Assembly (NCBI GenBank): GCA_000165345.1
Contig: CM000431.1
Coordinates: forward strand, 800,001-864,000
DNA: 64,000 nucleotides
Direction: 5' to 3'
Numbering within the stretch: position 1 is the first letter of the stretch; each line of letters begins with the position of its first letter. The notes beneath the pieces were generated by a model. It was not told the DNA's origin and did not search any database. It worked only from the letters and a program-made list of their open reading frames with translations. The position numbers and the translations under genes were made by a program. Below, piece by piece: positions 1 through 21,157 of the stretch.

Positions 1-362
1 GAGCTTGTAATCCCTCCAAAACCTCTTCATCGTCACCAGCAGCAATTTCTTTATCACAGGGAGATTCTCCTTCGATGGAAGATTTTACTTCTATAAGAAG
101 TTGTTTTAGATCTTGACTATTTAATCCTTTTTTAACTTTTCCTGTACATGTTACAATAAAATCAGCACCACCAAGAATTGCACATCTAACCAATGACGAT
201 AATCTAGATGCTTCGTTGATTTCACCTATTTCTAGTACTACCTTCAATAATATGTTTGGGCCAATCAATGATTTTACACGTGCAATTTCATTTATTACCT
301 TCTCCATCTGCTGTAATAGCAATTGATGTGTATATTTGTATAACATTGGGTATATAAAGCTC
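1..362 (-). CDS. Deoxyribose-phosphate aldolase (DERA/DeoC)-like, exon 2. It runs off the window at the 5' coordinate edge, so the gene is partial.
   Basis: The minus-strand frame is open from 362 to position 1. Its translation ...LKVVLEIGEINEASRLSSLVRCAILGGADFIVTCTGKVKK... aligns to the DERA motif LKVIIETGEL...AGADFIKTSTGKV. It joins exon 1 through a 51-nt GTAAGT...CTTCAG intron (413..363). Confidence 0.7.
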
Positions 363-413
363 CTGAAGTAGAATATTAATGGCTCAAATTAATATAAACA
401 TGAATTAACTTAC

Positions 414-739
414 CTATAATCAACAACATATTCGATTTCATGTACTTTGTAATACTCAACTGCATTATATATTTCAGCATCAATAGCCTCCGAGCAGCCA
501 TCACCTCTTGGCCAAGCTACAACAGTGGATAATGCTGTGCTGCTATTTTCAGGTAGTGAATGTTTGACAGATGGAATAAATTGCGGATAGGTTGAAATAG
601 AAACAGGAGCTAAAAGTTGATCTGAAGATGCCTCTCTTATTGCATTCTTCAATAATTTATTGTTCATTTCCGAAGTGTAAAGTGTAAGCTCACAAACATT
701 TGCAACCTTTCTTAAAAATTCTTTTTGATCTTCTTTCAT
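414..739 (-). CDS. Deoxyribose-phosphate aldolase-like, exon 1 (N-terminal 109 aa).
   Basis: The ORF translation ...YPQFIPSVKHSL...STVVAWPRGDG...EIEYVVDYR matches the DERA N-terminal region (IYPRFIPIA...ATVTNFPHGND...EVDVVFPYR). The apparent stop TAA is part of a GTAAGT splice donor. Confidence 0.7.
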
Positions 740-974
740 ATTTTGGAGTTGGTAAATCTTCTAATGATAAAAATACTTTTTTTTTTGTATTAATATAAAA
801 ACTTTGGTCTACCCTAAATTATTTGGAAATCCAAGCCTATTTATTGAGCTTGATACTATCTGTTGAAAACCAAATATTTAATACTTTAGCCTTCACACAG
901 GTTTCTCAGGAAACCGTATTATTTATTAATATAAAAATTATTTAAATAATAAATTATATAAATAAGCAAATAAA

Positions 975-1032
<58 letters not shown>

Positions 1033-2101: not shown

Positions 2102-2151
2102 CTAAAATTGAGGTTAATATTTTAAGAAAAAACAAAATATTGTGAACTTAC

Positions 2152-3896
2152 GTTTTTGCATAGGTCTTATTTATATGATGTATCACCCCTTTTGGATCTA
2201 TTATGAAAATTTTTCCTTCGGGAATTCCTACATGAGAATATGAACGATAGTCGGTATCTCGATTTCCAAATCCGGCATAAAGGGGGTTTCTATAAATTGG
2301 GAACAAGTTTCGGATATCTCTCAAGGCAGCAATTTTGAAAATATATGGCTTTCTATCTATTACTTCTCTCTTAAATGATGGAAAGAGTCGATCAGGAGAC
2401 AAAAAAACAGGTCCATCCGGTAAAGTTACATTACCAGAATTTCCTACCTGCTTCAACCCAAATAAAAAGTCACGGGTTGCATCCGCTTGACCAATCGCCC
2501 TAGCAGTTAAGTAAACAATTTTGTAGCCATTGGATTCAATATTAGTCATAAGTTCCGCTACACCCTGGTGTGACCAATCTCTCCCAACAATTGGCATAAG
2601 CTGCCCCAATACATCCGAGCGTGTAATTGTGCCATCTACATCTGATACTACAATCCTCGAATCAGGAGGCCAAAGATAAATAGTCCCACTTACAGTCTTC
2701 CTACCCTGTAAAGAAGACTCAACAGTATAAGTTACTCGATTTGCGCCCCATTTCAAATTCATGCTTTTCAATTGGTCAGATGTTGGTCTCAAAGAGTGTC
2801 TGAGGTACTTAACTGGAGGTTTTGATCTGCATAAGTATATGCAATTTGGTGTGTTAGTTGGATTATCCATTCTTAATAAATTTGGAGAACTTGATATGCT
2901 TTCAATACTTTCAAATGAAGATACTTCACAATTGTCAACAGAAACAGGCGCTGTAAGACAGCCTTGAATATGAGATTTAGAAGAAAGTGGCAATGTTGAT
3001 GAGAGGCACCTATTTGCACGGTGGTTCCCACTAATGTGATCAAAGTTAGAGTCAATAATTCCACAGTCTGAAGATGAGCGGATTTTTTTGGAGCTTTTTT
3101 CGGGTATTCCTAAGAACTTCTTCAATGCTTGCGTTGATGGAGGCTTGCCAAATGCAATTATTGATGTAATTACTGGATAAAACGCTTTAATTGGATAATA
3201 AGGAGGCTTTCCATCTATAACTGCAACTAGGCACGAATGATACCAAAGGTCTGGATCATTTTCGAACTGTTCAAAGGAGATAATATTACTTTGAAATACA
3301 TATTCATCATGTCTTGAGTCTTCCTCACCTCCATATAGTAAGTGACCACAGAGAGATAGCGTAATGTTGTATCTCTGAAAAACTTCATTTATATTTTGAA
3401 TATTTTCATTTTCAGTTTCTATATTTGTGAAATTTGAAGGGTCAGTACTATCTGTCTTATTTCTATACTCGACAGTAGTTTCAAATGACTTAGCATGGGA
3501 TATATTTAAACTTGAATTATTTGCTGGCTGTGAAGGCGTACTAATTTCCACATCACTTGGCGATGATTCACGGGAATCCGTTGGAGAAGAAATGTTTTCA
3601 AAACTATCTTCAGGGGGATCATCTTGGTGAATAAAGTATGCCTCGCCCGCAGCTCCTAACTTCATTTTTAATGGGATATCATTCCCATTAACATTAATTG
3701 AGACATGTTTCTCTCTACTTTTAAGTAACTTTGCTTTACCAAATCTAACATGGAAAGGAGTGCTATGAAGTGTTCCGTCCGCCTGAGGTACCACAATGAT
3801 ATCAATACATCCGCTTAAGGTTGCTTGGTTTATGTCCAATACTGAGCTAACCGAGCTTACGATCCTTCCCCACATCTTCTTACTAAAAAAATACAA
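2152..3896 (-). CDS. Lipin / phosphatidate phosphatase (Ned1/Pah1 family), exon 1.
   Basis: The N-terminal N-LIP region ([30 protein letters not shown]) is present. The C-terminal HAD/LNS2 domain carries the catalytic DxDxT motif ([14 protein letters not shown]). Confidence 0.85.
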
Positions 3897-4405: not shown

Positions 4406-5374
4406 GTGTTTGCGAATACTATTCACAAATTCATGCAATCGAAAAAAATAGAATTACATGATACAGACTCGAATGCACCCTTGTTACCATACTTAAGGAG
4501 GCTATTCAATACACTAAATAGAGAAATATGTTTATTCTACCTTCCATTAAATTTACCTTGCATGTACTCAGTTCCTTTTATAGAACAAGAACATTTAATT
4601 AAAAACCTATCAAGCGCTGACAACATTGATATATCTAGTTCAAAAAAAAGCTTTAACAGAAATAACAAGGTAGAGTTAATTAAGAGTCTCTATGTATATA
4701 GACACTCAAAAGAGTTTTGTTATATTGAAAGCTGCATTGATAGTGTGAGAGTTAGTCTTAAGTTCTACTTTAAATGCGAATTTGAAAGAAGATTGTTCAA
4801 TCAGCTAACGATTTTTATGAAGAAGAATTCAGATTATTTGCAATTAGTGAGAAAAAAATCGATTGAAGGATTTGATATTAGCTTTTTAATTACAAACCAC
4901 ATTTTAAATTCATACAACAATAAGATTTGTATAAGTAATAAAAGTAACTATGATGGCCAAATGGGTAAATATGATGTGATTCATTTTATTTTGAAATTTG
5001 TTGTTGATATTGATAGACAAATTCAAGACAAAATGCTTCAATCAACATATTTCTCGAGATATTATATTAGAAAACTACTTCAAGAATTCAATGTTAATGT
5101 TTTATATAAGCAGAATAGCATCAATATTCCTAAACATAAAAAACAATTAGATGAAACAAACAAATCGGAAATAAAAGGAATAGATCCTAACAAAGCTGAA
5201 ATAAGTATCAGTGAGAAAAATAATAATTTATTAGAGACTAAAAAGAGCCTAACATCTACGAAAAATATCAATTCAGGAAGTATAGCAACTCAATTAAATG
5301 ATTCAATAGGCCGAGATGCTATTGTGCTGAAAGCACTGAAAACTAGGAATCGAATAAAAAATTTAATTAACTAA
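4406..5374 (+). CDS. Hypothetical protein (322 aa, K/N-rich). I recognise no domain.
   Basis: Long ORF in a gene-dense region. Its stop abuts the stop of the convergent kinase gene. Confidence 0.5.
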   Translation: MFANTIHKFMQSKKIELHDTDSNAPLLPYLRRLFNTLNREICLFYLPLNLPCMYSVPFIEQEHLIKNLSSADNIDISSSKKSFNRNNKVELIKSLYVYRHSKEFCYIESCIDSVRVSLKFYFKCEFERRLFNQLTIFMKKNSDYLQLVRKKSIEGFDISFLITNHILNSYNNKICISNKSNYDGQMGKYDVIHFILKFVVDIDRQIQDKMLQSTYFSRYYIRKLLQEFNVNVLYKQNSINIPKHKKQLDETNKSEIKGIDPNKAEISISEKNNNLLETKKSLTSTKNINSGSIATQLNDSIGRDAIVLKALKTRNRIKNLIN

Positions 5375-13950: not shown

Positions 13951-15075
13951 ATGAGTATTGGAAGTTTTGTACCTGAGGTAATTTTTATGGATAACATAGA
14001 GTCAAATATTAAACTACTCACAGAAAATGAGAATTCGAATAACCAAATTGAGTGTATTTCAAAAGAGAATTTTTTAAATTTGAATTCTCAATTTAAACAA
14101 TCATCAGATAGTTTATCTTTTGATATGAAAATAAGAACAGAAAATATTAATTTAAATTCTATTCAAGAACCATCAAAAGTTGACCATTATTATAAAATTC
14201 AACCTTTGCAAGGCATTGAGCAGAATATTGGCGAAAACATTCAAATTCCTGTTGAAGATGAAGTTCAGAGTTATACGAGCTATAGCAATTTCAAATTAGA
14301 ATGGGATCATGAAAATAAAGCATTATTCGTAGTAATTCCTTCAGTTGATAGTTTGGACCATTGGATGATGCTGTTTTTGCAACCTTTAGGTATTACTTGT
14401 GATTCGCTGAGTTTAAATAATTGTTGTTTAAAAAGAAATTGCGACTTTCGAATACGGCTTGATGATGAAAGACTGTTACTTTATCCAGATTTATTAAAAG
14501 ATATTTCTGACTTTTTAAGTACACAGTATTTAAATTGGCAATATTATAGGGAAAATGTAATTATGAGGGATTGCGAGGTGATGGACTCTGAACAAGAAAA
14601 GTATATCGGTGATAACTTAATAAATGGCAATCATTTCGGTCCAAAATGTTACAATTATTGGAAATTCCCTGATATAAATGTATTCGTGAATAATGATTCT
14701 CACTTAAATAATGAAATTAACTTTGCAGAGGATGAAAATTCCAGTAAATTTTATGAAAAAGAAAATTTTTCTCAAAATAATGGTAGCTTTGAAAGGAATA
14801 TTCAAAAATCAATCACCAATTACAACACAGACATTTACGGAAAGTGTTTATTAGTTCCAGAACTGTGTTCAAAAGGTGATGAACCTTTGGTACAGAATAA
14901 TACATTATCATGTCTTACTACCAATATTTCTGATTTAAATGTGCTAACTACAGACTCTGGCGTACTTCAAGTATTGACATCTGAGAATTCTAATCATGAT
15001 GATAACTATTTTGCATTAAATACGAACAGTTCAATGGGAACAAATGACAAGGAGTATTTCCCTATTGAAACTTAG
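13951..15075 (+). CDS. Hypothetical protein (374 aa)
   Basis: Long ORF. I recognise no domain. Confidence 0.45.
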   Translation: MSIGSFVPEVIFMDNIESNIKLLTENENSNNQIECISKENFLNLNSQFKQSSDSLSFDMKIRTENINLNSIQEPSKVDHYYKIQPLQGIEQNIGENIQIPVEDEVQSYTSYSNFKLEWDHENKALFVVIPSVDSLDHWMMLFLQPLGITCDSLSLNNCCLKRNCDFRIRLDDERLLLYPDLLKDISDFLSTQYLNWQYYRENVIMRDCEVMDSEQEKYIGDNLINGNHFGPKCYNYWKFPDINVFVNNDSHLNNEINFAEDENSSKFYEKENFSQNNGSFERNIQKSITNYNTDIYGKCLLVPELCSKGDEPLVQNNTLSCLTTNISDLNVLTTDSGVLQVLTSENSNHDDNYFALNTNSSMGTNDKEYFPIET

Positions 15076-19400: not shown

Positions 19401-19429
19401 CTTTAATCAAAAAAAAATTTTAAAAATGT
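19401..19429 (-). terminator. Pol III oligo-T terminator downstream of tRNA-Gly
   Basis: T5 and T9 runs on the tRNA coding strand immediately 3' of the discriminator base. Confidence 0.6.
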
Positions 19430-19500
19430 GCGTGTATCGGGAGTCGAACCCGAGCCATCAGTTCGGAAAACTGAGATGCTAGCCGTTACACCATACACGC
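19430..19500 (-). tRNA. tRNA-Gly (anticodon UCC), 71 nt. It has intragenic A/B boxes and a downstream oligo-T terminator.
   Basis: The reverse complement GCGTGTATGGTGTAACGGCTAGCATCTCAGTTTTCCGAACTGATGGCTCGGGTTCGACTCCCGATACACGC folds as a cloverleaf. The acceptor is a 7-bp stem GCGTGTA/TACACGC. The anticodon stem is TCAGT/ACTGA, with loop TTTCCGA giving anticodon TCC. The T-arm is TCGGG-TTCGACT-CCCGA. The discriminator is A. T5 and T9 runs follow on the coding strand. Confidence 0.85.
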
Positions 19501-19627: not shown

Positions 19628-21157
19628 TTATGAAAATATTTTTGCTTTAAAGCTAAATAGATCGCGTATATTTGGGATATTATAACTAATCATCGTTGGC
19701 CTTTCAAGAGAAAGCCCCCATGCAATCACAACGATGTCAGAGGGAAACCCGAGTGGTCTAAGCATTTCTGGTCTAAATAAGCCGGAATTTCCAACTTCGA
19801 TCCACTTTTTTAGGGTAGTGTGGTATCCAAAGATTTCCATAGAAGGCTCAGTATAAGGGTTAAATGCAGGTTTAAATTTAAGATCGGAAATACCAATCTT
19901 TTCGTAGAAAGTCTTTAAAGTTCCGATTAGATCTGCAAGTGTAAGATTCTTGTCGACAATTAATCCCTCAACCTGATGAAACTCAGCAAGATGGGTAGCA
20001 TCGATTGATTCATTTCTGAAAACACGGTCAATTGAGAAGTAAGCCTTTCTCTGGAAATTATCAAAAGATAGTCCGTTCTCGTTATATAAATACATTTGAG
20101 CAAGTTTATAAAGCATTCTTACGGAAACTGCTGTTGTGTGAGTTCTAAGAAGATTTTTAGAGGCTTCTTCAATACTCCAATTGTAAGATAAACCAATTGA
20201 TCCATATCCGCCAATCTCATGTACTTTTTTAACTTTATCAATGTGATCGTTCGACAACTCCATTTCATTTCTGAAAGTACTTGGAGTTTCTAAGAAGAAA
20301 GTATCATGAGAATCTCTTGCAGGATGTTTTTGAGGTTGGAAAAGAGCATCAAAATTCCAGAATGAACTTTCAACCCAGCGATTAGTAGGCATCTCTTCAA
20401 ATCCCATTTGAGATAAAATTCTCTTAAACTTTCTTGAAGTGCGAGTAAGAGGATGAATATTTCCTCTTGGCAGTCTTTTTCCTTTTGCATTGAAATTATA
20501 GGGTTTAAACTCGTTGTTTTCCCAACTTGAGTTCATAATCATTTCTTGGGTTAAATCAGTAATCATAGGTTTAAGCTTCACAGTAAAGTCCTCCCCCTTA
20601 TTAATCATGAAGTAAGATATTTTCTGTGAGATTGCAAGTTTTCTCTTTTTTAATTCTGCTATTATTTGTAAATCTTGTTTAGTTAGTTGACTCTCTTTAA
20701 CACCATTTACCCCCACAATAAGAAGATTTTTCCCTAACTCATCGGTATTTAATAAATCCATGTTGGAATCAGCAGGAATCTCTATTAGTCCCAATTCTTT
20801 ATTTAATTTGATCAGCTTTTTCTGAAGACATTTTGAAAGCCCTATTTTAAATATGGAGCCTCCCAGAAATGTCATTGCCTCGTCTTGTTTAATTTTATGA
20901 TCAGACTTTTCCAAAATAATTTTAATAAGCCTGTATTCTGGTGATCCATTCAACAAATAGTCTTTTCCCTCATCTGTAAGAGATAACATATTGTCCGAAA
21001 TAAATTGTGTTTTAATAATATTACGGGACTCCAAACTTTTAATTACTCCTATTACTCTTTCATGCTCACATTTGAGTTCTTCTGAAATGCTAATACTGCT
21101 TAAAGAACAATTAAGCGACTCAAGCTTTTCTAATATTGTTACAGGTTCCACTTCCAT
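19628..21157 (-). CDS. Phenylalanyl-tRNA synthetase alpha subunit (cytoplasmic)
   Basis: [55 protein letters not shown] is near-identical in pattern to the eukaryotic FARSA class II motif region. The C-terminal catalytic core is ...[10 protein letters not shown]. Confidence 0.9.

What the first reader, a model, noticed from the sequence alone, without database searches (positions are those of the whole stretch)
1..739. Spliced DERA-like aldolase with valine at the Schiff-base lysine position
The gene is clearly DeoC/DERA-like across two exons. But in the conserved GADFIKTSTGK motif the catalytic Lys (E. coli K167) is replaced, giving GGADFIVTCTGK. The Asp102 equivalent appears to be Glu (EIEYVVDY against EVDVVFPY). 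This suggests either a pseudo-enzyme or a non-canonical mechanism. Toxoplasma has a DERA-like protein (TgDPA) reported to interact with actin-depolymerizing factor, so a structural or moonlighting role is plausible. The gene is also mis-split by the ORF track: its apparent stop is a GTAAGT donor.
Basis: seen in the sequence. Interest (0 to 1): 0.6.

Follow-up and report, generated by a model that had tools for sequence, protein, structure and literature searches.

The report
Cryptosporidium DERA-like protein lacking catalytic lysine
This is the already-annotated Cryptosporidium parvum "deoxyribose-phosphate aldolase" gene; its product keeps the aldolase fold and a strongly conserved pocket but has valine in place of the lysine that does the chemistry, so it is probably not that enzyme and resembles the inactive Toxoplasma protein TgDPA.

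Summary
Window 1-739 (minus strand) holds the 5' part of a two-exon gene: exon 1 at 739-414, a 51-nt GTAAGT...TTCAG intron at 413-363, and exon 2 from 362 off the window start. The window is Cryptosporidium parvum chromosome 3. The spliced 405-aa product is identical to annotated C. parvum proteins named "deoxyribose-phosphate aldolase" (QOY42676.1 and others).

It is a DERA homologue by sequence and predicted fold. E. coli K167 (Schiff-base lysine) is Val179, D102 is Glu103, D16 is Glu17 and C47 is Ser49. K137, K201 and the phosphate-binding residues are kept. This pattern is invariant in 10 Cryptosporidium species, while K167 is Lys in 216 of 217 other DERA homologues examined.

The gene is under strong purifying selection (barrel dN/dS 0.02-0.09), and the former active-site positions are the most conserved part.

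Toxoplasma TgDPA shows a similar pattern (E16, S47, E102, Gln at 167). Trees do not support a common origin.

Best reading: a conserved pseudo-aldolase or repurposed DERA-like ligand binder that cannot run the canonical reaction. It is a new member of a known kind, of modest interest, and the database name is probably wrong functionally.

The parts
414..739 (-). Exon 1 of the DERA-like gene (Met1 to the first two bases of codon Arg109). It encodes beta1-beta4 of the barrel, including Glu17 (691-689, E. coli D16), Ser49 (595-593, C47) and Glu103 (433-431, D102).
   Evidence: The product is identical to annotated C. parvum proteins.
363..413 (-). 51-nt intron, GTAAGT...TTCAG, phase 2. The apparent stop codon TAA (412-410) lies inside the donor.
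   Evidence: Only the 51- and 54-nt introns keep the frame open. An intron sits at the same codon in four other Cryptosporidium loci, with lengths 50, 54, 50 and 188 nt. These lengths are not all multiples of three, so the segment cannot be coding. The spliced product equals the annotated protein.
1..362 (-). Exon 2, 5' part (last base of codon 109 to Ala229); it continues past the window start to residue 405. It encodes Lys149 (244-242, E. coli K137), the invariant block SLVRCAILGGADFIVTCTGK with Val179 (154-152, in place of K167), and the start of a Cryptosporidium-specific insertion (GESPCDKEIAAG...).
740..1030 (-). 5' flank of the gene. There is an in-frame stop 12 codons upstream of the ATG, and an AT-rich (TA)n/(TATATACA)n microsatellite at about 960-1030.
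   Evidence: Several independent short-read assemblies break about 268 nt upstream of the ATG, inside this repeat.

Best explanation
The gene encodes a genus-wide conserved, DERA-derived TIM-barrel protein that can no longer run the canonical class I aldolase reaction. The Schiff-base lysine on strand beta6 is a valine, and the proton-relay aspartate (D102) plus D16 and C47 are replaced by Glu, Glu and Ser.

The protein is not decaying. It is kept under strong purifying selection, and the old pocket is the most conserved part. That pocket still holds the K137 and K201 equivalents, two glutamates, and the intact phosphate-binding residues (K172, G204, G205, S238 equivalents).

I infer that it still binds a phosphorylated sugar-like ligand in the old active site. 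I also infer that it acts non-catalytically, as a binder, regulator or scaffold in the manner of a pseudoenzyme, probably through its lineage-specific additions. These are a roughly 48-residue insertion between alpha6 and beta7 with an invariant GE(S/T)PCDKE motif, and an 85-residue disordered tail ending in an invariant SK.I..EY..N.

Shown: homology, fold, the substitutions, their invariance and the selection. Inferred: loss of dR5P cleavage, retained ligand binding and a non-catalytic role.
For: Homology and fold:
- PDB phmmer gives E=1e-14 to DERAs.
- The AF2 model of the C. serpentis orthologue (63% identical) has eight beta-strands and pLDDT above 90 over most of the barrel. Foldseek's top hits are DERA structures, with TM 0.87 normalised to the target.

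Substitutions:
- The alignment around K167 is gap-free.
- All 10 Cryptosporidium species have E17, S49, E103, K149, V179, K184, K257, G260 and S294.
- Canonical DERAs have K167 in 126/127 and 90/90, D102 in 125/127 and 88/90, and C47 in 119/127 and 90/90.

Selection:
- Nei-Gojobori dN/dS for the barrel is 0.02-0.09 in the pairs where dS is not saturated. The best pair is C. parvum vs L005, with dS 0.74 and omega 0.068.
- Former pocket positions are invariant at 14 of 15 sites, against 151 of 305 for the rest of the barrel (Fisher p=6e-4).
- The longest invariant runs are the pocket strands SLVRCAILGGADF, VTCTGK, TFRIGSSTLHP, LKVVLEI and STVVAWP.

Family thresholds:
- The protein fails the curated equivalog threshold for deoC (57.8 bits against 117.3).
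- It also fails Pfam DeoC gathering.

Precedent:
- TgDPA (PDB 3qyq/4eiv) has E16, S47, E102 and Q167.
- From my own knowledge of Tonkin et al. 2015 (J Mol Biol 427:840; not held in the library), TgDPA was inactive on dR5P and bound F-actin.
- From my own knowledge of Heine et al. 2001 (Science), K167 is the Schiff-base lysine of E. coli DERA and mutants at K167, K201 and D102 lose activity.
Against: - No activity or binding data exist for any Cryptosporidium orthologue.
- Extreme conservation of the pocket with an intact phosphate site and two lysines is also what a repurposed, still catalytic enzyme would show.
- TgDPA is an imperfect precedent. It has additionally lost phosphate-site residues (L172, V204), which Cryptosporidium keeps. 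Trees give no support for common ancestry once the catalytic columns are removed (5% bootstrap).
- The 3-D position of the insertion's invariant Lys213 could not be measured, because no model coordinates were available. It is placed on the non-catalytic face only by TIM-barrel topology.
Confidence: 0.6

Rival explanations
1. It is a repurposed, still catalytic enzyme. With Val at 167, the neighbouring Lys257 (K201 equivalent) or Lys149 (K137 equivalent) sits in a more hydrophobic pocket with a depressed pKa. It acts as the nucleophile or base on a phosphorylated substrate other than dR5P, or on dR5P by a shifted mechanism, with Glu103 and Glu17 as acid/base.
For: - The pocket is the most conserved part of the protein (14 of 15 sites invariant, p=6e-4).
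- The phosphate-binding residues K184, G260, G261 and S294 are retained, unlike in TgDPA.
- Both other pocket lysines and two carboxylates are invariant.
- Purifying selection is strong.
Against: - TgDPA also keeps the K137 and K201 equivalents yet was reported inactive on dR5P (my recollection of Tonkin 2015; not verified here).
- I know of no DERA-family member shown to use K201 or K137 as the Schiff-base lysine.
- In E. coli DERA, K167 mutants are inactive despite having K201 (own knowledge, Heine 2001).
- Four simultaneous active-site changes are typical of pseudoenzymes.
Confidence: 0.25
2. It is a TgDPA orthologue in the strict sense. A single ancient duplication and inactivation in the apicomplexan ancestor produced an actin/ADF-associated DERA-like protein that Cryptosporidium and tissue-cyst coccidia both inherited, so it works as TgDPA does on actin dynamics. 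This overlaps with the best explanation but adds common descent and a specific partner.
For: - Shared states are D16E, D102E, loss of K167 and I139V, plus C47S in TgDPA itself. Both also share the motifs GGADF and (I/V)D(W/Y)R.
- Crypto+DPA is recovered in 24-32% of NJ bootstraps.
Against: - Support falls to 5% when nine active-site columns are removed. DPA instead groups with canonical Plasmodium DERA (31-68%).
- The residue at 167 differs (Val vs Gln).
- Overall identity to TgDPA (25%) is no higher than to E. coli DERA (23%) or P. yoelii DERA (24%).
- phmmer scores to TgDPA (33.9 bits) are lower than to bacterial DERAs (58 bits).
- The insertion and tail are Cryptosporidium-specific.
- No actin or ADF interaction data exist.
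Confidence: 0.1
3. It is a decaying pseudogene or an annotation artefact with no function.
For: Loss of the catalytic lysine. Old annotations split or truncated the gene (C. hominis TU502 XP_667090.1 + XP_667089.1; Iowa II 394-aa model).
Against: - The open frame is intact across the conserved intron in at least 10 species.
- dN/dS is 0.02-0.1.
- There are 165 invariant residues in the barrel.
- Intron position and lipin / DERA-like / GCN5 synteny are conserved out to C. serpentis.
Confidence: 0.02

Closest known systems
TgDPA, the Toxoplasma gondii deoxyribose-phosphate-aldolase-like protein (PDB 3QYQ, 4EIV), and its Neospora and Besnoitia orthologues
   Same: - DERA TIM-barrel fold.
- Schiff-base Lys167 is lost.
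- D16 to Glu and D102 to Glu; C47 to Ser in TgDPA itself.
- K137 is retained and K201 mostly retained.
- Extra residues lie between beta6 and beta7.
- Both fall below the Pfam DeoC and TIGR00126 thresholds.
   Different: - Val rather than Gln at position 167.
- Cryptosporidium keeps the phosphate-binding K172, G204 and S238 equivalents, which DPA has changed (L/R172 and V/I204 in all four DPA proteins; G238 in TgDPA only).
- Cryptosporidium has a longer insertion (about 48 aa, with an invariant PCDKE motif) and an 85-aa disordered C-terminal tail.
- Only about 25% identity, and no phylogenetic support for orthology once active-site columns are removed.
- TgDPA's actin/ADF binding and its inactivity are experimental (literature, from memory). 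Nothing is known for Cryptosporidium.
Canonical class I 2-deoxyribose-5-phosphate aldolase (DeoC/DERA; E. coli 1JCL, Colwellia 5C2X, Plasmodium yoelii 2A4A)
   Same: - Homologous over the whole barrel (E=1e-14).
- Predicted fold TM 0.85-0.87 normalised to the target.
- Conserved beta-strand motifs LLKVxxE, GADFxxTxTGK, GxKxxGG and FRxGxS.
- K137, K172, K201, G204/G205 and S238 are retained.
   Different: - Lacks the nucleophile K167 (Val).
- D102, D16 and C47 are replaced.
- Has a 48-aa insertion and an 85-aa tail.
- Scores half the deoC equivalog cutoff.

Membership tests
Deoxyribose-phosphate aldolase (DeoC/DERA, EC 4.1.2.4; TIGR00126 equivalog) | Sequence passes the curated equivalog score threshold | tested here: not met
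   TIGR00126 scores 57.8 bits against a cutoff of 117.3 for the C. parvum protein, and 48.8 for C. serpentis. Pfam PF01791 DeoC gives no hit for C. parvum and 18.5 against 23.8 for C. serpentis.
Deoxyribose-phosphate aldolase (DeoC/DERA, EC 4.1.2.4; TIGR00126 equivalog) | Schiff-base lysine on strand beta6 (E. coli K167) | tested here: not met
   Val179 in a gap-free alignment of GGADFIVTCTGK with AGADFIKTSTGK. It is invariant in 10 species.
Deoxyribose-phosphate aldolase (DeoC/DERA, EC 4.1.2.4; TIGR00126 equivalog) | Proton-relay residues D102 and K201 | tested here: not met
   D102 is replaced by Glu103. The K201 equivalent Lys257 is retained.
Deoxyribose-phosphate aldolase (DeoC/DERA, EC 4.1.2.4; TIGR00126 equivalog) | (beta/alpha)8 barrel of the DERA type with a phosphate-binding site (K172, G204, G205, S238) | tested here: met
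   The AF2 model has eight strands, and Foldseek's top 50 hits are all DERA structures or DERA-derived engineered variants, with E down to 2e-15. K184, G260, G261 and S294 are present.
Deoxyribose-phosphate aldolase (DeoC/DERA, EC 4.1.2.4; TIGR00126 equivalog) | Cleaves 2-deoxyribose-5-phosphate to glyceraldehyde-3-phosphate and acetaldehyde | not testable with these tools
   Needs a recombinant enzyme assay.
TgDPA-type catalytically impaired DERA-like proteins | DERA fold with the Schiff-base lysine replaced and D102 to Glu, D16 to Glu | tested here: met
   The table of sites shows Cryptosporidium with E/E/V and Tg/Nc/Bb DPA with E/E/Q. The unnamed fourth DPA-like protein P0204 has D/E/Q.
TgDPA-type catalytically impaired DERA-like proteins | Common descent with TgDPA (orthology) | tested here: inconclusive
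   NJ bootstrap for Crypto+DPA is 24-32%, falling to 5% without active-site columns. DPA+Plasmodium gets 31-68%.
TgDPA-type catalytically impaired DERA-like proteins | Binds actin or actin-depolymerising factor; inactive on dR5P | not testable with these tools
   These are experimental properties reported for TgDPA (Ueno 2010 and Tonkin 2015, from memory; the papers are not held).

The most novel reading that the evidence does not exclude
The Cryptosporidium protein is not a dead enzyme. It would be a DERA barrel that has moved its chemistry: Lys257 or Lys149, in a pocket made more hydrophobic by Val179 and flanked by Glu17 and Glu103, with the phosphate site intact, catalyses a new reaction on a phosphosugar. 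Alternatively it serves as a metabolite sensor coupled to the genus-specific PCDKE insertion and C-terminal tail. Either way, this minimal-metabolism parasite would have an unrecognised activity currently hidden under a wrong 'DERA' label.
Probability: 0.2. Interest if true: 0.6.

Novelty: new member of a known kind. Interest (0 to 1): 0.35.

Why it matters
Every current Cryptosporidium annotation that names this gene calls it a deoxyribose-phosphate aldolase or a DeoC-family aldolase. Metabolic reconstructions of this drug-poor pathogen may therefore inherit a reaction the protein almost certainly cannot perform.

The protein is conserved across the genus under strong constraint, which argues that it does something important. 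The parallel with Toxoplasma TgDPA suggests that apicomplexans have turned DERA barrels into non-catalytic proteins, possibly twice independently.

It is a tractable case for pseudoenzyme biology. It is not a new kind of system, and no function can be assigned from sequence.

Tried and rejected
Intron and frame:
- Other intron models were rejected. Acceptors at 311 and 308 (the visually obvious ttacag/cag) break the frame, and only the 51- and 54-nt introns keep it open. The 51-nt model matches the annotated proteins.
- A ciliate-style reading of TAA as a sense codon was considered and dropped. Intron lengths differ by non-multiples of three between species.

TgDPA comparison:
- The Tonkin 2015 paper could not be read by DOI or PMC id.
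- Getting TgDPA residues from the PDB search took several attempts. Short or heavily masked queries gave nothing, and a truncated query left TgDPA ranked tenth.
- Masking only YPQFIP brought it to the top. A hybrid query then exposed residues 25-273.

Searches:
- The representative search unintentionally used only the C-terminal 291 profile positions, because three of the seven rows covered the N-terminus. It still covers the K137, K167 and K201 region.
- Literature searches for the gene IDs (cgd3_3200 and others) and for Cryptosporidium plus DERA found nothing relevant.
- A search for a second, canonical DERA in Cryptosporidium found none among the named hits. The candidate caps make this inconclusive.

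Other:
- The phylogeny is only NJ with Kimura distances and is unresolved.
- Model coordinates are not exposed, so distances from Lys213 or Lys257 to the pocket could not be measured.

Full report
**What is in the sequence**

The feature is on the minus strand. An ATG at 739-737 follows an in-frame stop 12 codons upstream. It opens a 109-codon ORF whose stop, TAA at 412-410, lies inside a consensus donor AG|GTAAGT. I tested every AG acceptor downstream. Only a 51-nt intron (413-363...ctacttcAG|G) or its +3 neighbour (54 nt) keeps the frame open. The eye-catching ttacag/cag at 311 and 308 does not. Exon 2 (362-1) runs off the window start.

**Source and full gene**

Exact-sequence look-ups show the window is Cryptosporidium parvum chromosome 3. 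Two other window ORFs are identical to C. parvum proteins: PheRS alpha at 19631-21157(-) and ORF 13951-15072(+).

A Logan contig (L002) matches the window with 0 mismatches over 739 nt and supplies the rest of the gene. With the 51-nt intron the product is 405 aa. It is identical to KAL5369674.1, QOY42676.1, WKS77069.1 and WRK31562.1, which are named "Deoxyribose-phosphate aldolase" or "hypothetical protein CPHLJ_3g3200".

- C. hominis TU502 splits it into XP_667090.1 (109 aa) and XP_667089.1 (291 aa).
- The Iowa II model is 394 aa.
- The C. muris RN66 model lacks 11 residues at the junction.

**The intron is real**

Four other Cryptosporidium loci have a GTAAGT donor at the same codon. Intron lengths are 50, 54, 50 and 188 nt (C. 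serpentis). Differences that are not multiples of three exclude a coding reading. Synteny of lipin, the DERA-like gene and GCN5 is conserved in C. serpentis.

**Homology and fold**

- phmmer against PDB gives E=1.1e-14 to Colwellia DERA, about 3e-12 to E. coli DERA, 2.6e-11 to P. yoelii DERA and 2.3e-7 to T. gondii DPA.
- The protein is nevertheless divergent. Pfam DeoC is below gathering or absent.
- The NCBIfam deoC equivalog scores 57.8 bits against a cutoff of 117.3.
- An exhaustive HMMER search of 1.84 billion cluster representatives finds only the Cryptosporidium cluster below 1e-30. Canonical DERAs start at about 1e-16.
- An AlphaFold2 model of the C. serpentis orthologue (mean pLDDT 75, above 90 for most of the barrel) has the eight strands of a TIM barrel. 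It also has two extra helices in an insertion between alpha6 and beta7, and a disordered tail from residue 321.
- Foldseek's top 50 PDB hits are all DERA structures or DERA-derived engineered variants. TM normalised to the target is 0.87 for Colwellia DERA and 0.75-0.80 for TgDPA.

**Active site**

In gap-free local alignments GGADFIVTCTGK pairs with AGADFIKTSTGK, and HEIEYVVDYR pairs with DEVDVVFPYR.

| E. coli residue | C. parvum residue | Status |
|---|---|---|
| D16 | Glu17 | replaced |
| C47 | Ser49 | replaced |
| D102 | Glu103 | replaced |
| K167 | Val179 | replaced |
| K137 | Lys149 | kept |
| K172 | Lys184 | kept |
| K201 | Lys257 | kept |
| G204 / G205 | Gly260 / Gly261 | kept |
| S238 | Ser294 | kept |

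Ten Cryptosporidium species share exactly this pattern, apart from one G205 to S in C. serpentis. In two independent sets of other DERA-family proteins:
- K167 is Lys in 126/127 and 90/90.
- D102 is Asp in 125/127 and 88/90.
- C47 is Cys in 119/127 and 90/90.

I addressed it as far as sequence allows. The flanks of Val179 are identical to the canonical motif, so no shift is possible. The other genus-invariant lysines (K6, K59, K98, K139, K213, K396) fall in helices, alpha-beta loops, the insertion or the tail. These lie on the face of a TIM barrel opposite the catalytic one. I could not measure distances because model coordinates are not exposed.

**Not a pseudogene**

Nei-Gojobori dN/dS across the barrel is 0.02-0.09 where dS is not saturated. 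For C. parvum vs L005, dS is 0.74 and omega is 0.068. The tail evolves faster, with omega 0.11-0.25.

Fourteen of the 15 former pocket positions are invariant in nine species, against 151 of 305 for the remaining barrel positions (Fisher p=6e-4). The longest invariant runs are the pocket strands themselves: SLVRCAILGGADF, VTCTGK, TFRIGSSTLHP, LKVVLEI and STVVAWP. The remodelled pocket is therefore what selection is preserving.

**Comparison with TgDPA**

The TgDPA paper is not in the library. I recovered TgDPA residues from the PDB sequence search with a masked query and then hybrid queries. I later obtained the full sequence (P0187) and the Neospora and Besnoitia orthologues.

TgDPA has FFEVAALT (D16 to E), VSV (C47 to S), DEIECLIDWR (D102 to E), LKVVL (K137 kept), GGADFLQTSSG (K167 to Q) and IGIK (K201 kept). 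That is the same set of positions changed as in Cryptosporidium, three of them to the same residue. TgDPA differs in having also lost phosphate-site residues (L172, V204, G238), which Cryptosporidium keeps. P. yoelii DERA is fully canonical.

Is this common descent? NJ bootstraps recover Cryptosporidium+DPA in 24-32% of replicates. That falls to 5% when nine active-site columns are removed. DPA tends to join canonical Plasmodium DERA instead, at 31-68%. Overall identity of the C. parvum protein to TgDPA (25%) equals its identity to E. coli or Plasmodium DERA (23-24%). Common origin is therefore unsupported, and convergence is at least as likely. The methods available are too weak to settle it.

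**Interpretation**

Established enzymology of E. coli DERA rests on my own knowledge of Heine et al. 2001. There K167 forms the Schiff base and D102 and K201 form the proton relay. On that basis the Cryptosporidium protein should not catalyse the canonical reaction.

By my recollection of the abstract of Tonkin et al. 2015, TgDPA is inactive on dR5P and binds F-actin. By my recollection of Ueno et al. 2010, it binds ADF.

The most likely reading (about 0.6) is a conserved pseudo-aldolase that still binds a phosphorylated ligand and acts non-catalytically. The main rival (about 0.25) is a repurposed enzyme using Lys257 or Lys149. Strict TgDPA orthology with an actin role is possible but unsupported (about 0.1). 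A decaying pseudogene is excluded.

**Novelty**

The gene and its splice are already in public annotations. DERA-like proteins without catalytic residues are known from Toxoplasma. I found no paper noting that the Cryptosporidium "DERA" lacks the catalytic lysine. I file it as a new member of a known kind, with practical value as a likely functional mis-annotation in a pathogen genome. Interest is modest, at 0.35.

Noticed in passing
window 960-1030: There is an AT-rich microsatellite, (TA)n interspersed with TATATACA/TATGTA units, about 220-290 nt upstream of the gene's ATG. Independent short-read assemblies of the same organism break about 268 nt upstream of the ATG, inside this repeat.
   Followed up: partly
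beyond window start; C. parvum protein residues ~205-252 (begins at window ~75-1, minus strand): A Cryptosporidium-specific insertion of about 48 residues lies between helix alpha6 and strand beta7. It carries the genus-invariant motifs GE(S/T)PCDKE(I/V)AAG and PNRLR.LQ.R. It is predicted as two extra helices of low to medium confidence. TgDPA has a shorter, unrelated insertion at the same place.
   Followed up: partly
beyond window start; C. parvum protein residues 321-405 (locus L002 ~1280-1537): An 85-residue acidic tail is predicted disordered and evolves faster than the barrel (omega 0.11-0.25). It nevertheless ends in a genus-invariant C-terminal motif SK.I..EY..N, and intestinal species also conserve GISHPSAP and NKDIIKVEALN. 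These look like short linear motifs with an unknown partner.
   Followed up: no
window 19428-19500 (-): A tRNA-Gly (anticodon TCC) sits about 130 nt downstream of the phenylalanyl-tRNA synthetase alpha gene (19628-21157, minus strand).
   Followed up: no
window 4406-5374 (+): An ARPC4 (Arp2/3 complex 20 kDa subunit) homologue lies in an ORF of 322 aa that the ORF lister starts at GTG. The Pfam match spans residues 24-226 for a 167-position profile. This implies an internal insertion of about 40 residues and a C-terminal extension, or an unrecognised intron.
   Followed up: no
window 2148-3896 (-): The upstream neighbour is a lipin/Ned1/Smp2 phosphatidate phosphatase homologue (LNS2, Lipin_N and Lipin_mid domains). 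The order lipin, DERA-like gene, GCN5-type bromodomain acetyltransferase is conserved in C. serpentis (L008).
   Followed up: partly
protein P0032 (from; not in the window): An 821-aa protein of unknown origin consists of three tandem, apparently canonical DERA domains, each with GADFLKTSTGK or GADFVKTSTGK and VGFKAAGG. It was the best non-Cryptosporidium hit to the profile.
   Followed up: no
proteins P0033 and P0047 (from; not in the window): Two canonical DERAs of about 285 aa, rich in Asn, Lys and Ile, with N-terminal extensions, were the nearest single-domain relatives of the Cryptosporidium clade. They were its sister group in one NJ tree. Their source organism is unknown, and they might mark the lineage from which the Cryptosporidium gene derives.
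   Followed up: no
public annotations of orthologues: Gene models disagree at the intron:
- C. hominis TU502 is split into two proteins.
- The C. parvum Iowa II model is 394 aa.
- The C. muris RN66 model lacks 11 residues (RSFAFPMLYNF).
- The C. felis model uses the +3 acceptor and lacks Arg109.
   Followed up: yes
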